Source: Myxococcota bacterium
Lineage (GTDB): Bacteria; Myxococcota_A; UBA796; GCA-2862545
NCBI GenBank assembly: GCA_039208735.1
Contig: JBCCQY010000024.1
Coordinates: 12,431 to 76,430 of the forward strand
Length of the DNA: 64,000 nt
Direction of reading: 5' to 3'
The first letter of the stretch is position 1; each line of letters opens with the position of its first letter. Positions 39,401 through 45,400 of this stretch are shown here, piece after piece. Position numbers: made by a program.

Positions 39401-42400
39401 GAGTCGCGCGTGAGCTGGCGCCAAGATTGAAAGGCGGCGAGCGGGTTTTCGCGTTCGAGGGACCGTGAGAACCGGGCGGCCTCCCGCCAGGCAGCCGGCG
39501 GCTCGAAGGGAGGCGGGCTGACATCCATCTCGAAGGGGGCGACGAGCTGGCCGTTGCCGTCGAAACGGAACGCGGCCTTGAGGAAGTCCTTGTCGAGCCC
39601 TGATAAATCGCTGGTGACGGATTCCGCTCGTTCCAGTCGTCCAAGGGTCGCCGTTTCAAAGCGCTCGAAGATGGTGCGGAGGTCGGATTGCGCGTCCTCG
39701 GCCATGGTGCGCGCCCGACGTTGCAGCTCGCTGTCGAGCCCCGCCGGATCCGCGGCGATACCGTTGAGTGCCTGCCAGGCCAAGAATCCTGTGGGCAGGA
39801 GCATGAGAACCGCGAACACGATGACGAAGCGCAACACCTCGGAGAGGTGTTGTACGTCACGCAGAGCACGGACCTTGCCACGGCGCCGCGAGATTACCGC
39901 GACGAGCCAGGCGCGAAGGACAGCACGAACCGACGACATCGCCGGTGTCGTATCACGGCAGCGGCCCCGTCAAGGTCTGCGCCCACTTCAGAATCTCTTC
40001 GCTGAACACGCCGATGACGGCTCCGAAGAGCGTGGCGACGATCCATTGGGCGGCCCGTGCAAAGGTCCGCCCGTAGTTTGCCGCCACCTCGATCTCGATG
40101 ATTTGCATCGGCAGGGCTGCCTCGGCGATGAGCCCCTCGCGGACGGTTCGTGAACCCACCACGAGTTGCAATCGCCGCGTACCGGACTTGGTCGGGGTGA
40201 TCATCCACGTCCACTCGGCTGGCTTCCCGCGGACCCCATCGGGGTCGTCGATCCACTGCGTTTCGGGACTCGCCAGTTCGATGCGGAAGCCTCCGTCAGG
40301 GGCCACGAGACGTGCCGACATCGCTTGCGTCACCTGAATGCGATGCGCAGTGAGCGTGCCCTGCATGCCCTTTCGCAAGGCGTCGTCTCCGATGGTGGCG
40401 CCCAACCGCACCACAATGGTCTCGCACTTGTCGACCCGCATGCGGCGCGGGATGTTCTCGACGAGTTCGCCATCGGCCAAGCCCGGCGGCGCCGAAGGGG
40501 GAGGGATCGACAGGGACCGGTCGCTTTCGCCTCCTCGTGTCAGGCCACCACCGGGAGCCGGCCGGGGGATCGACACCGAAGGCTCATCCTCTTCTTCGAC
40601 TTCATCGAAGGTCTCATCGGCCAGGCTGTGATCGCGGCGAACGCGCTCGCCGGCTCGGTGATCCTCGAACCGTGTGGGCTCGTCGTCCGGGATGGACTCG
40701 TAGTCCTCGAGTTCGGGGGCGGGGACGCGGTCCTGGCTGCGCCCCGTCGAAGGCTCGGCGTGGACGGTGGGAACTTCGTCGTCGAACTCGTCCACGTTCC
40801 ATGGCGCGGGCTCGAGACTCTGCCGCCCTTCCGCGAACGCATCTTCGGTGCTGCCCTTTTCCTTGGCGGCGCGCTTGGGGGCAGGGGGGACCTCGTCGTC
40901 GTAGTCGGTCGACGGTTCGTTGATGAGCGTAGCGGGGCCCGAGGCTCCTGCGTCGGGCACGGACGCCTCTTCGGTCGGTGCATCGACGACGTCTTCCTCG
41001 TCATCGTTCGCGAACTGATCCGACGGGGCGAGCGGCGGGGGAGGGGGGGCCTCCGCGGCATCCGGTCGGGGTTGAAGCCCCACCGGAGGCTCTGGCGCAT
41101 CTTCCGCCGCTACCGGCGATGCCTTTGGGGGCGGGGTGGGTGTGGTCACCGTCACCCCGAGATCGCGCAGCCAGTCGGCCACGGGCGACGGTGTTTCGAT
41201 CAGCGAAGCCACCACCGAGCCTGCATCCACTTGTGGCTGCCCAAGGGCCTGCGCGCGAGCCTCCGCTGCAGTCAGCACCTCGGTCAACGGATCATCTTGG
41301 GGAGGGATCTGCCCAAACGCCGCCGCATCGCCCGTCTGCTGCATGAGACGGGCCACGATCTGGGCCCGCAGCGTCATCAACGACCCGCTGTCGAGCTGCA
41401 ACAGGGCTCTTGCCTGGGTGGCGTCCACAAAGGCGAGCAAGAGGTGCTCGATCGTGACGGCGGCATGCGCCGACTCGAGTGCGACGCGCTGCGCTTCTGC
41501 AAGCAGCTCCTCGAGTTCCATTGTGTACGTCAATCCCGGAGTGCGCGGCTCCGAACGCCCCATCTTGCCTCTCCCAGACCCATGGTCGGGTGCAGCATAC
41601 CTCGCGGGGCGCCTGGATACCGTGCTCAGGTACCGCCCTCGGTCACGGGTGAAGTTTCCTCGCGCAATGGCTCACATGGATACCAAAGGGCTCGTTGCCA
41701 AGAGGAGCCTGTTGATGACCTTTTTGTCCCCGCTCGAGACCAAGCCTGCCGCCGCCCGTCCCCTCCTTCGAGAGTACGCGGCGTGGCGATTTGGTCAGCG
41801 GCTTCTCACGGTCACACGGGCCATTTTTGCGTCCTGGGGCTGGCCCGTTCGGCGTGCCTCGGTCGCCCTTGAGAACGCGTTGATGCACACATTGGTGGAT
41901 GACGCCGTGGCGGATCCCGCCCGACTTTGGCCCCGCGTGGACGGGGAAGCTTGTCAGGTCGGCTTTGCGTGCATCGGCCGCGAGGATGATGCGCGAGCCG
42001 AAGCCCTGGCCCGCGCGCTGTCCCAGTCGCTCTCCGAAGACAGCATCGGGTTGCCTCCGGGGCCTCCCCAGGTCACGGACGACGCCTTCTCCATTGGAGC
42101 GTTCCAGCTGGAGCGCAACCGGTGGGTCGAACGGGCATGGCGCCACGTCGCGGACCGGGACGGACCCGAGGCGGCCACCGAAGCGGTACTACGCTGCGCC
42201 TTGCGCTACGCCGCGTTGTTCGCGGAGACGCGCCACATTGGGCCTCCGCAGCGTGTCTACGACGACTTCTACGCCTGGGGTGTCCGAAACGAGGGCTTCG
42301 CCCAGCCCTTCAACGCCCGACTCTTGGGTAAGCCCGGTGCGCGCTTTTTCAGTGCCTGCGCCGATGTCGACCTGCCGTTCGGATCGGCGGGCAACTTCTT

Positions 42401-45400
42401 TACGGAAGCCAAGCCCGATGGCACGGGTGCATGGTGCCTCGATCCGCCGTTTCTGCCCGACACCATCCGCAAGGTCGAAGAGCGCATTGCGGCGTGGCGA
42501 GCGCTCCCCGATGGGCCGGCTGTGTTGTTCATCATTCCGTGGTCCCACGAACTGTCGGTCAAGCCCGACGAAAGCGTGCGCCTGATGTCGGGCAAGCACG
42601 TCTACGAAGGCCTTGAAGGGACTCAGAAGCCACTGCCCGTCGACGTCGCGATCCACCGATTTGGAGAGCTCGACGGGTTCGACGCGGGAGCGATCCTCGC
42701 CGGCTACACCGCGCAGGACGCGTGATGCGAGGGCTCCCCTTCGCGCTGTCCTCGGCGCCGCTCGTCCTCCTCGCCGTAGCCTGCCTTATCGCTCCAGATG
42801 CAACGGGAAGCCTTGTCAAATCAGGGTTCGACCTGTCGGCGGCATGGTTCGGCGGACCGTGGCAAGTTTTGTTCGTGGCCTATGGACTTGGTGCAGTGGC
42901 GCTCGCCGCGAGCCCGTGGGGCAAAGCGCGGCTCGGCCTTGGACCGCCTGAGTACACCTTTGCGGGTTGGGTCGCGGTGTTGGTGTGCACGTTGCTCGCT
43001 GGAGGCGGCGTGTTTTGGGTGTGTGCAGAGCCCATGTTCCACTTCACCACGCCACCCCCGGCCTTTGACGTGGCTACGGGGACGCGAGAGGCCGCCACGG
43101 TGGCGTTGGCCCAGGCCCACTTCCACTGGGGGTTCTTTGCGTGGGCCATGGTGGGGACGCTCGGGGCGGTGTCGCTCGCCGCGAGCCATTGGCTGGACGG
43201 ATTGGCCTTTCGCCCCCGGGCCCTGCTCGCCCCGTTGACGGGCGAACTGCCTGAAACGGTCGGACATCTCGCCGATGCGGTCGCGATCGTGGCCGTCATT
43301 GCGGGCACGGTCGGTCCGATCGGGTTCCTCGCCCTTCAGCTCTCGAACGCCGCCGAGGGCTTGCTCGGCATTCCGGATGGCTACGCCACGCAAATCGTTG
43401 TGTTGCTCGCCTTGGTGGCGTTGTACACGGCCTCGGCTGCGTCGGGCCTTCAGCGGGGCATTGCTTGGTTGTCGAGGGCCAACGTGATCGGTGCCATCGG
43501 ACTGGGCCTGGTCGTCTTGGTCCTTGGGCCGACGGGGTTCATCCTTTCGATCGGTCTGGACTCGTTTGGCACCTACCTCGCTTCCATTCCGTCGATGGCG
43601 TTCTTCCGGGCCGACACGGGCTGGCTGTCGTGGTGGACGGTCTTTTTCTGGGGGTGGTTCCTGGGATTCGCCCCCATGATGTCCGTCTTCGTGGCCCGCA
43701 TTAGTCGCGGCCGAACGGTGCGGGAATTGGTGCTCGCCGTCGCCGTGGCAGCTCCCTTGGTCACGCACATGTGGTTCATCGTGGTCGGAGGGACGTCGTT
43801 GTTCCTTGAACTCGATCAGCCAGGAGTGATCTCGGGTCCGTTGTCCGACGAGGGCATGGCCGCGGCGATGCTCGCGACGTTGTCGCAGCTTCCGGGTCAG
43901 GCCTTGCTGATTCCATTGTTTGTACTTTTGGTCTTCTGCTTTCTTGCCACCACCGGCGACAGCGTTGCGTTCGCGGTGAGCGTGGTGCTTTCGGGGGCAG
44001 ATGACCCGCCGGTCGGACTCCGCATCTTCTGGGCCGTGGCGATGGGGGTATTGGCGGCGGCATTGCTGGGGGTTGGTCAACAAGGGATCGACGCACTCCA
44101 GCAGTTCATCGTGATTACCGCGGTGCCGGTGACGTTTCTGGTGGTGCCTACCCTCGTGACGGGTCCGATGGGGGCGAGACGGCTCTACCAGCAACAGCAG
44201 GAGTCGTAAGCCCGGTTCGCCAGCTATCGTGTGCAGCGGGAGGGGCCGATGCAACGACTTTGGCGGGGGTGGTGCTTCGTGTTGGCGGCGTGTCGGGGAG
44301 CGTCGCCGGCCGATCTTCCGCCTAGTTTCGTCGTTGTCGTGCTCGATGACATCGGAATCGACAAGGTTGGCCGGTACGACGTTCACCCCGATCCGGCGCC
44401 GACCCCCACCCTCGACCGTCTCGCGGACGAAGGGCTCTGGTTTCGTCATGCCTTCGCGATGCCGTCATGCACGGCGACCCGAGCTGCCTTGTTGACCGGT
44501 CGCCACGCCTTTCGGACCAAGACGGGCTCGGTGATTTGGCCCTTCGACACCACATGGGAGCTTCCGCTGCCCGAAATCACGTTGCCCGAAATGCTTGCGC
44601 AGGCTGCGATGCCCTACGACAGTGCACTGGCGGGAAAGTGGCACCTGTCGAGCAACGTGTCGCCGTCCACAACCTTCCACCCCACCCGACAAGGGTTTGG
44701 ATGGTTCTCGGGCTCCATGAACAATTTATGGGTAGATTCCGTCAACGAGAGTGGTGGGTACGGCTTCTTCGACTTTGAGAAGATCCAGCCGGATGGGTCG
44801 GTCAAGATCGAACGCCAATATGCGACGACCGACACCACGGACGACGCGGTGCGGCAATTGCGGCGACTCGAGGAGCCTTTCCTTCTCGTGGTTTCGTACA
44901 ACGGGGCTCACAATCCCTGGCACACTCCTCCTCGACGCCTGCACAGCTTCGGCAATGACTTGTCCAAGGTTGAACAGCACCTCGCCGCCACTGAAGCCGT
45001 CGACGCAGAACTCGGCCGGTTGGTGGACAGCATGCCGGACGACCTTCGGCAACGAACCTACGTGATCGTGGTGGGCGACAACGGTACACCTTCCACCGTC
45101 ACCACTGCTCCGAGCGACCCTGACCAAGCGAAGGGAACGGTGTGGGAGGGAGGGGTTCGCGTGCCCATGGTCGTCACCGGGCCGCGGGTGCCACAGGGTG
45201 AGGTCAGCGACGCGCTGATCTCGGTGGTTGACCTCTTTCCGACGCTTGCCGCCATCGCCGAGGTGCCCTTGGAGGATGTCGACGTGGTGGGGCCCTTGGA
45301 CGGGGTGTCCCAGGCCGAGGTGTGGCATGGCACAGCCGACGCGGCCCGTGCGTCGGTGTACCTTGAGGCGATGTCCCACACGGGGCCCGGACCCTGGGCG

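What a model noticed while it worked through the whole genome (the two positions that open the first line are those of the whole stretch)
41715..44209. Bacterial homolog of the eukaryotic mRNA-cap m6Am methyltransferase PCIF1/CAPAM, coupled to a BCCT transporter
Gene g02124 (336 aa) is a full-length bacterial relative of PCIF1/CAPAM, the eukaryotic cap-specific adenosine-N6 methyltransferase that the literature treats as eukaryote-only, and its stop overlaps the start of a BCCT (betaine/choline/carnitine) transporter gene. I read it as an active amino-group N-methyltransferase (invariant DPPF motif) representing the long-sought prokaryotic stock of PCIF1, acting here not on mRNA caps but on a nucleotide or quaternary-amine-related small molecule taken up by the BCCT partner. 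If true it gives the origin of the cap m6Am writer and a new bacterial methyltransferase activity to assay.
Evidence so far: Pfam PCIF1_WW hit (i-E 3.2e-12, call 30); family in only 45 of 189,784 bacterial species genomes, 9 of 153 in the order (relatives.tsv, call 5). 92 proteins at E<=0.001 (query included) among those of 184-588 aa searched; the named ones are Myxococcota MAGs, Schleiferiaceae and Psychroflexus. Alignment of 35: invariant D243-P-P-F246 (PCIF1 has NPPF, recalled), W240, G176-P177. AF2 model pLDDT 92.4, pTM 0.88; Foldseek PDB: the six best hits are all human/zebrafish CAPAM (6irv E 4e-9, TM on query 0.51), next hit E 2.4e-3. Profile of the 35 bacterial sequences against all PDB sequences: only human and zebrafish PCIF1 match (E 5e-7, 6e-7; bacterial 177-280 on human 330-428, DPPF aligned with PPF [...]
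(Added by a program. Inside this text positions count along the whole contig: contig position 12,431 is position 1 of the stretch shown here. "Call 12" and the like, gene names such as g00115 and contig names such as C1 are that model's own, and its searches are not shown. The text may have been shortened before it was handed on; [...] marks where a part breaks off. The agent that wrote the report below was given it as the finding of a first reader that could run no searches.)

Follow-up and report, generated by a model that had tools for sequence, protein, structure and literature searches.

The report
Repurposed cap-methyltransferase relative in marine bacteria
A few salt-water bacteria carry a true relative of the enzyme that methylates mRNA caps in animals, but it looks borrowed from the giant-virus side of the family, has lost the cap-gripping residues, and travels with a solute importer, so it probably methylates a small molecule instead.

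Summary
Observation confirmed. 41715-42725 encodes a 336-aa protein with the whole PCIF1/CAPAM helical-plus-methyltransferase fold (Z 21.6 over 300 residues; next 9.3), with invariant DPPF; its stop overlaps a BCCT gene. The 'prokaryotic stock of PCIF1' reading is disfavoured. AU tests do not reject the alternatives (p 0.395, 0.054). Cap-binding Arg239, Glu563 and Trp593, kept in most viral-type proteins, are replaced (Asn 53/53, mostly Pro, mostly Ser), so it is probably not a cap enzyme. The BCCT link is stronger than reported. In the order, all 9 genomes with this BCCT subtype have the enzyme; the tenth carrier has an ATP-grasp ligase instead. The link is ancestral and was lost once, in Bacteroidota. 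The subtype lacks part of the betaine aromatic box and elsewhere sits in clusters laid out like the homarine operon. Best reading: a virus-derived, repurposed small-molecule N-methyltransferase; substrate unproven; picolinate-to-homarine is the boldest candidate.

The parts
41703..41707 (+). AGGAG ribosome-binding-site-like motif, 7 nt before the ATG
   Evidence: sequence; function inferred
41715..42725 (+). PCIF1-fold methyltransferase, 336 aa: compact helical domain (about 16-167) plus Rossmann domain (about 170-336), DPPF at 243-246; no WW domain; cap-binding positions replaced (N54, P248, S277)
42722..44209 (+). BCCT transporter, 495 aa, start overlapping the methyltransferase stop; atypical subtype (BetP Y197 to V, W374 to F, W377 to F), same clade as BCCTs in homarine-operon-like clusters
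44231..45583 (+). Sulfatase gene 21 nt downstream on the same strand; not seen beside the family in other loci, so probably not part of the unit

Best explanation
The gene came to bacteria once from the giant-virus-type branch of the PCIF1 family and then spread sideways among marine and hypersaline bacteria (Myxococcota, Bdellovibrionota, Bradymonadales, a planctomycete, then Bacteroidota). It kept the SAM pocket and the (D/N)PPF catalytic loop, lost the m7G-cap grip, and gained its own invariant pocket residues (N54, T172-R173-H174 in the active-site loop, H295, L307-P308). It most likely N-methylates a small soluble nitrogen compound tied to its ancestral partner, a BCCT importer of the homarine-transporter-like subtype. 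In three loci an ATP-grasp ligase replaces the importer, an import-or-make pattern. SHOWN: fold, motif, residue swaps, purifying selection, co-occurrence, ancestral linkage, BCCT subtype. INFERRED: direction of transfer (about 75%), catalytic activity, small-molecule substrate (about 50%), identity of the BCCT with HomT (about 70%, from gene order only).
For: Fold. Nesting: bacteria plus 5 unnamed proteins 97/82 with a Dam outgroup; 97/91, and 98/91 with P0171, full length. With those 5 removed the clade still does not join Dam (SH-aLRT 93 and 82 on the path). Root variance is 0.465 at best against 0.669 on the bacterial stem. Cap residues: R239 is R in 145 of 161 viral-type rows and N in 53 of 53 bacterial; W593 is W in 156 of 161 against S in 42 and W in 4 of 53; E563 is E in 114 of 161 against 5 of 53. 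The helical region is net acidic in 49 of 52 bacterial and 12 of 41 viral-type rows. dN/dS is 0.04-0.09 in the 10 of 21 Psychroflexus-group pairs with unsaturated dS. Partner: among 154 genomes of the order, 9 have the BCCT subtype and all 9 have the enzyme; the tenth carrier (G147) is the only genome with the ATP-grasp gene, which lies beside it. Of 17 distinct non-Bacteroidota loci, 13 have the BCCT adjacent, 3 the ATP-grasp and 1 neither; the 37 unlinked sequences form one derived clade (0.92). The linked BCCTs share a clade (1.0) with plasmid BCCTs in LysR-ALDH-M19 peptidase-BCCT-hypothetical-DUF3726 clusters. Their regulator-ALDH-peptidase-transporter order matches Cobetia homR-D-C-T (PMC13236597).
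Against: The AU tests reject neither alternative placement (p 0.395; p 0.054), and the tree base is a polytomy. Only 2 cellular PCIF1 rows and 4 Dam rows were in the trees. The sister group is not shown to be viral (no member found in IMG/VR; all unnamed). Without it the nearest neighbour is unstable. The sister group also lacks R239 and W593, so part of the loss predates the bacteria or is ancestral. The whole helical domain, an RNA-binding part in PCIF1, is retained, which a small substrate does not need. Seven Bacteroidota carriers searched lack the BCCT subtype (best 26-34% identity) yet keep the gene under selection. Acidity may only reflect halophile proteomes; the query's helical region is near neutral. 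(D/N)PP(F/Y) enzymes usually act on an exocyclic or amide NH2 (established knowledge), and picolinate has none. No activity data exist.
Confidence: 0.45

Rival explanations
1. One reading: the bacterial clade is the surviving prokaryotic stock, and giant viruses and then eukaryotes gained cap specificity (R239, W593) later.
For: AU p 0.395 for bacteria+Dam. Dam also has no Trp at the PxW position. The sister group lacks the cap residues as well, which would read as a ladder of gains. PMC4738411 (passages) derives the PCIF1 clade from bacterial M.EcoKI/TaqI-group enzymes.
Against: Nested placement in five trees. Root estimates fall elsewhere. A shallow, patchy clade (median pairwise identity 43%; 34 family loci in the species-genome scan) stands against 1964 clusters overall. 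States are derived relative to Dam. Phage Dam (PF05869) is the next structural neighbour outside the family and lacks the helical domain, so it is the better candidate for the deep prokaryotic stock.
Confidence: 0.15
2. Virus-derived but still a nucleic-acid enzyme: it N6-methylates adenine in RNA (5'-terminal A, NAD/CoA/Np4 caps, tRNA) or in ssDNA, and the BCCT is only a co-transferred passenger.
For: Whole helical domain and SAM site kept. DPPF/DPPY occurs in the RNA m6A enzymes ZCCHC4 and RlmJ (PMC8287941 passages). Human PCIF1 acts on uncapped RNA and ssDNA in vitro (PMC9178792 passages). The gene stands alone in Bacteroidota.
Against: Acidic helical domain. Linkage to one BCCT subtype is kept across 37-75% GC, with order reversed in L028 and BCCTs from two branches of the subtype. 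It alternates with an ATP-grasp ligase. No restriction, RNA-processing or defence genes recur nearby.
Confidence: 0.25
3. It methylates a peptide or protein: the product of the ATP-grasp ligase, an imported dipeptide, or a protein amide, as HemK/PrmC does with NPPY.
For: The ATP-grasp partner folds like L-amino-acid ligases, among others. An M19 dipeptidase lies beside the same BCCT subtype elsewhere. The gene follows prfB-arsC in Psychroflexus.
Against: ATP-grasp link in only 3 loci, and its fold hits do not separate ligases from PurK/PurT or biotin carboxylase. The prfB context is one inherited insertion. The peptidase is explained as HomC if the cluster is the homarine operon.
Confidence: 0.1
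4. Catalytically dead or ligand-binding regulator of the BCCT.
For: Translational coupling to the transporter. The query departs from the family at S197Q and F215C.
Against: DPPF 53 of 53; E193, D219 and G226 52 of 53. It is retained under selection without the BCCT.
Confidence: 0.05

Closest known systems
PCIF1/CAPAM (human, zebrafish; PF12237)
   Same: Helical plus methyltransferase fold over 300 residues, Z 21.6; E-x-F-A-S-P-x-N and PPF motifs.
   Different: 336 vs about 700 aa; no WW domain; DPPF for NPPF; R239, E563 and W593 replaced; 5 extra residues after the ASPxN motif; helix after PxW deleted; host has no known m7G caps (established knowledge).
Giant-virus (Nucleocytoviricota) PCIF1-like proteins
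   Same: Same compact size and best structural match (Pithovirus LCPAC103 TM 0.70, CroV 0.63); the same long loop in 86 of 161 rows; nearest in trees.
   Different: They mostly keep NPP(F/Y), R239 and W593, and are often fused to cap 2'-O-methyltransferase, TGS1-like, poly(A) polymerase or helicase domains; the bacterial clade has none of these fusions among the lengths searched.
Phage N6-adenine DNA methyltransferases (Dam, PF05869)
   Same: Related catalytic domain, next structural neighbour (E 8.9e-4; TM 0.39).
   Different: No helical domain; NPPY; DNA substrate.
HomT, homarine BCCT of Cobetia OBi1 (PMC13236597)
   Same: The partner BCCT is 46-49% identical to, and in one clade with, BCCTs in clusters with the same regulator-ALDH-peptidase-transporter order.
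BetP / BetT / TmaT / DddT
   Same: BCCT family (E 3e-56 to 4e-39).
   Different: Y197 to V, W374 to F, W377 to F; below all NCBIfam cut-offs.

Membership tests
PCIF1/CAPAM | PF12237 above cut-off | tested here: met
   45.9 bits vs 31.1
PCIF1/CAPAM | Helical domain plus Rossmann methyltransferase domain in the same arrangement | tested here: met
   Z 21.6, 300 aligned, model 13-332 on 6irx 199-673
PCIF1/CAPAM | (N/D)PPF catalytic motif | tested here: met
   DPPF 53 of 53; Asp, not Asn
PCIF1/CAPAM | Cap-binding Arg239 and Glu563 (named in PMC11550742) | tested here: not met
   Asn 53 of 53; Glu 5 of 53, query Pro. Mapped through profile alignments; a Glu/Asp lies one residue later
PCIF1/CAPAM | Cap-stacking Trp (preprint; the number 593 is recalled) | tested here: not met
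   Ser 42, Trp 4 of 53; query S277, with an unconserved W276 beside it
PCIF1/CAPAM | Cap-binding Arg269 | not tested
   Region not covered by the printed alignments
PCIF1/CAPAM | N-terminal WW domain | tested here: not met
   No PF00397; also absent in viral-type members
PCIF1/CAPAM | Basic helical-domain groove | tested here: inconclusive
   Net acidic by composition in 49 of 52; surface not computed; halophile bias possible
PCIF1/CAPAM | m6Am formation on capped RNA | not testable with these tools
   Needs an assay
Giant-virus-type PCIF1 radiation | Nested placement in rooted trees | tested here: inconclusive
   Nested with starred support, but AU p 0.395 and 0.054
Glycine-betaine BCCT (BetP type) | W189, W194, Y197, W374, W377 box (preprint 10.1101/2020.05.29.123752) | tested here: not met
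   W, W, V, F, F
HomT homarine transporter | Orthology to Cobetia ACFLL8_11505 | tested here: inconclusive
   Gene-order match of relatives only; the table with annotations could not be read
HomT homarine transporter | Homarine uptake | not testable with these tools
   Needs a transport assay

The most novel reading that the evidence does not exclude
A giant-virus mRNA-cap methyltransferase was captured by marine predatory bacteria and turned into a pyridine N-methyltransferase that makes homarine (picolinate plus SAM) or a sister osmolyte, next to a HomT-type importer. That would give a gene for the synthesis of a major marine metabolite (none was listed in my search), and a case of virus-to-bacterium recruitment of a cap enzyme into metabolism.
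Probability: 0.12. Interest if true: 0.88.

Novelty: new variant of a known kind. Interest (0 to 1): 0.63.

Why it matters
PMC8868631 states that PCIF1 has no prokaryotic homologues; this family is a clear exception, with cultured carriers (Psychroflexus, Salibacter) and a compact 326-340 aa protein that should be easy to assay. It is a natural experiment in how the PCIF1 scaffold changes substrate once the cap residues go. If the nesting holds, it is a rare transfer from the giant-virus/eukaryote side into bacteria. The transporter link narrows the substrate to a testable class, possibly homarine-related. It probably does not explain the origin of m6Am; the trees instead point to giant viruses as a large reservoir of PCIF1 diversity.

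Tried and rejected
Single-sequence PDB search: no hit at E 10. NCBIfam has no model for the protein. A viral-type query found nothing in the phage collection. A pattern for the cellular motif found 0 matches in viral contigs. The IMG/VR scan for the sister group returned 6 loci of another protein and no member. The 5-residue loop insertion looked like a shared derived character of bacteria and viruses, but short-loop viral proteins nest inside long-loop ones, so it is homoplastic and I do not rely on it. Profile scores are not decisive: bacterial rows score 127-189 bits on the viral-type profile, human and zebrafish 94-98, but four other cellular-type rows score 140-142. A role on release factor 2 from the prfB neighbourhood was rejected as one inherited insertion. 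A recent transfer into this genome was rejected: GC3 is 0.77 and 0.78 against 0.72-0.85 for seven neighbours. The DUF3726 search in 5 carrier genomes was empty, but the control was empty too, so it shows nothing. No promoter-like site was found. No RNA holder was listed. Three look-ups of earlier findings returned nothing. Paper searches listed no paper on bacterial PCIF1 homologs; the library lacks most subscription papers. No complex prediction was run.
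Full report
1. Observation. Window 41715-42725 (+) translates to 336 aa with DPPF at 243-246. 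The BCCT gene 42722-44209 starts on a GTG that overlaps the stop. Pfam gives PF12237 at E 6e-12, above cut-off, and BCCT at E 1e-126. The homolog search returned 92 proteins among 8000 candidates of 184-588 aa; 53 of them (at least 300 aa, under 70% identity) form alignment A1. The model (pLDDT 92.8) matches CAPAM first by Foldseek and by VIA-align: Z 21.6, rmsd 3.6, 300 residues, covering both the helical and the catalytic domain, with the next entry at 9.3. The helical domain was described as unlike other known folds (PMC8287941, passages), so this is PCIF1 homology and not generic methyltransferase likeness.

2. Against viral models the best hits are PCIF1-like proteins of Pithovirus, CroV, Hokovirus, Bodo saltans virus and Tetraselmis virus, with TM up to 0.70. 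The A1 profile finds 1964 clusters at E 0.001 among 1.84 billion representatives; I saw the best 150, of which about 16 (plus three fragments) are the bacterial family. The rest mostly carry NPP(F/Y). They are mostly unnamed, so 'viral-type' is a group label. It rests on 25 IMG/VR loci, six on GVMAG contigs, on fusions to FtsJ, VP39-type, TGS1-like, poly(A) polymerase and helicase domains, and on Atlas neighbours that are 46-73% viral.

3. Direction of transfer. I added two cellular-type PCIF1 rows (P0254, P0257; P0257 scores 131.8 bits to human) and four phage Dam domains. A FastTree of 219 rows (12 of 231 dropped as gappy or duplicate, the query among them) put 51 bacterial rows in one clade (0.998) deep among viral-type rows. 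The careful catalytic-domain tree (51 rows, Dam outgroup) gave bacteria 100/99 and bacteria plus five unnamed proteins 97/82, with an unresolved base. The full-length tree (40 rows; Dam, three long branches and four bacterial rows left out) gave 97/91, and 98/91 with P0171, which keeps the cap residues. Minimum-variance and midpoint roots are off the bacterial stem (0.465 vs 0.669). Without the five sisters the clade still does not join Dam, though its neighbour changes. Against both Dam and most viral-type rows, the bacteria have derived states: Asp for Asn, Ile for Trp, and a deleted helix. Against my reading: the AU tests do not reject bacteria+Dam (p 0.395) or bacteria+cellular PCIF1 (p 0.054). 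The sisters are not shown to be viral (nearest Atlas clusters are mostly viral), and they too lack R239 and W593. I put virus/eukaryote-side origin at about 75% and prokaryotic stock at about 15%. PMC4738411 (passages) already derives the PCIF1 clade from bacterial DNA methyltransferases, and phage Dam is the nearest such structure here.

4. Active site. Zebrafish numbering was mapped from the alignments (offset 177, consistent with the chain range) and the profile comparison. Arg239 and Glu563 are named as cap-binding in PMC11550742 (one passage). A cap-stacking Trp was a filter in bioRxiv 10.64898/2026.10.22.757692 (first part, sections 5 and 11, passages); its number 593 is recalled. Viral-type rows keep R in 145, E in 114 and W in 156 of 161. 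Bacterial rows have N in 53, E in 5 and W in 4 of 53. The bacteria instead fix T172-R173-H174 in the loop that corresponds to the active-site loop ending at human P494, plus H295 and L307-P308. The helical region is net acidic in 49 of 52 (viral-type 12 of 41), though the query is near neutral. dN/dS is 0.04-0.09 in the 10 of 21 pairs with unsaturated dS. So: a selected, probably active N-methyltransferase with a rebuilt pocket, not a cap enzyme. The preprint's supplements were closed, so I cannot say whether any of its 55 candidates were bacterial.

5. Partners. The species-genome scan gave 37 loci, 34 of this family; the metagenome scan gave 31, 24 of this family. In the window's order, 10 of 154 genomes have a full gene and one has a fragment. 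21 have a BCCT at E 1e-40, but only 9 have the subtype at 44% identity or more, and all 9 carry the enzyme; it is adjacent in 8 (one split at a contig end). Fisher p is 9e-14 by genome and 8e-9 by genus, overstated because kin are not independent. The tenth carrier, G147, is the only one of 154 with a particular ATP-grasp gene, divergent from the enzyme. The same gene follows the enzyme in a Bdellovibrionales and a Bradymonadales genome. Its model resembles L-amino-acid ligases, PurK and PurT without resolving which. On the family tree of 54 distinct locus sequences (5 duplicates and 9 repeat loci dropped), the 17 outside the Bacteroidota clade form the basal grade: 13 BCCT-linked, 3 ATP-grasp-linked, 1 unlinked. 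The other 37 form one derived clade without either partner in the DNA held, some of it short. Seven Bacteroidota genomes searched lack the subtype.

6. The transporter. It keeps BetP W189 and W194 but has V, F and F at Y197, W374 and W377 (residues from bioRxiv 10.1101/2020.05.29.123752, passages). Its best plasmid relatives (47-49%) sit in LysR, aldehyde dehydrogenase, M19 peptidase, BCCT, hypothetical, DUF3726 clusters, beside 'sarcosine oxidase' genes in two of three regions read. PMC13236597 (sections 6 and 11, passages, supplement searches) describes the homarine operon as homE-A-B-T-C-D-R, with C a peptidase, D an aldehyde dehydrogenase and T a betaine-type transporter, plus a misannotated 'sarcosine oxidase'. 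The T-C-D-R order matches. I could not read the table with sequences or domains, and the hypothetical protein shows no FAD-family Pfam hit, so HomT identity is an inference of about 70%. Enzyme-linked BCCTs fall on two branches of this subtype, one of them next to the Phaeobacter and Ruegeria proteins. G000 has no match to the hypothetical or DUF3726 gene.

7. Mechanism. Best reading (0.45): SAM binds at the conserved E193/D219/DPPF site; a small nitrogen compound, held by R173/H174 and other clade-specific residues, is N-methylated; the BCCT imports the substrate or the product, and in some genomes a ligase supplies it instead. Carriers named are marine or hypersaline taxa (established knowledge), which fits an osmolyte. 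Picolinate to homarine is the sharpest version (0.12), weakened because DPPF enzymes normally need an N-H. Rivals: nucleic-acid adenine methylation without a cap (0.25), prokaryotic stock (0.15, a separate axis), peptide or protein substrate (0.10), inactive regulator (0.05).

8. Novelty. PMC8868631 (passages) says PCIF1 has no prokaryotic homologues. Searches listed no paper on bacterial members, but databases already name some 'PCIF1 family methyltransferase'. It is a member of the PCIF1 structural family and fails the cap-recognition features: a new variant of a known kind. Akichika 2019 and Boulias 2019 were not seen; PMC9178792, PMC10915109 and PMC7909422 were seen as passages only. Interest 0.63.

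Noticed in passing
L035:3406-6067, L036:417-1553, L037:379-1848; P0107: Viral-type PCIF1 genes (NPPF, PxW; tandem in L035) on short contigs of MAGs labelled Omnitrophota and Verrucomicrobiota, and an FtsJ-fused one labelled Patescibacteria: probably misbinned giant-virus DNA, which would inflate counts of 'bacterial PCIF1'.
   Followed up: partly
P0112, P0155, P0161, P0174, P0180, P0199, P0205, P0217, P0152: An unnamed subfamily with a hydrophobic N-terminus that keeps NPPF but lacks R239 and W593; sister to the bacterial clade; origin unknown.
   Followed up: partly
P0100: Single 422-aa protein basal to the bacterial clade: shares N54 and the helix deletion, keeps PxW, has HPPY; source unnamed.
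   Followed up: partly
P0098, P0175: Macrostomum lignano PCIF1_WW proteins (one a triple tandem) group with viral-type, not cellular, PCIF1: possibly a virus-derived gene family in a flatworm.
   Followed up: no
L082, L083, P0250: Short-loop viral PCIF1-likes nested among long-loop ones, showing that the loop indel arose more than once.
   Followed up: yes
L001, L002, L028: Records titled 'uncultured Enterobacteriaceae' are genomes of the window's own order (G037, G038, G068), at 70-75% GC: mislabelled titles.
   Followed up: yes
L160:714-8419, L161:3377-11943, L162:2346-10935: Plasmid clusters in Pseudomonas MPC6, Phaeobacter and Ruegeria TM1040 laid out like the homarine operon; if so, DUF3726 is HomA or HomB. 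The hypothetical gene matches 168 plasmid records.
   Followed up: partly
window 39953-41563 (-): 536-aa gene divergent from the methyltransferase with only a Clp_N repeat match and no AAA domain hit.
   Followed up: no
window 31938-33707 (-): groEL-like gene with GC3 0.85, higher than its neighbours.
   Followed up: no
G038:C22:102145-102294; G065:C67:10865-10981: Isolated C-terminal fragments of the family (about 40-50 aa), suggesting decayed or partial copies.
   Followed up: no
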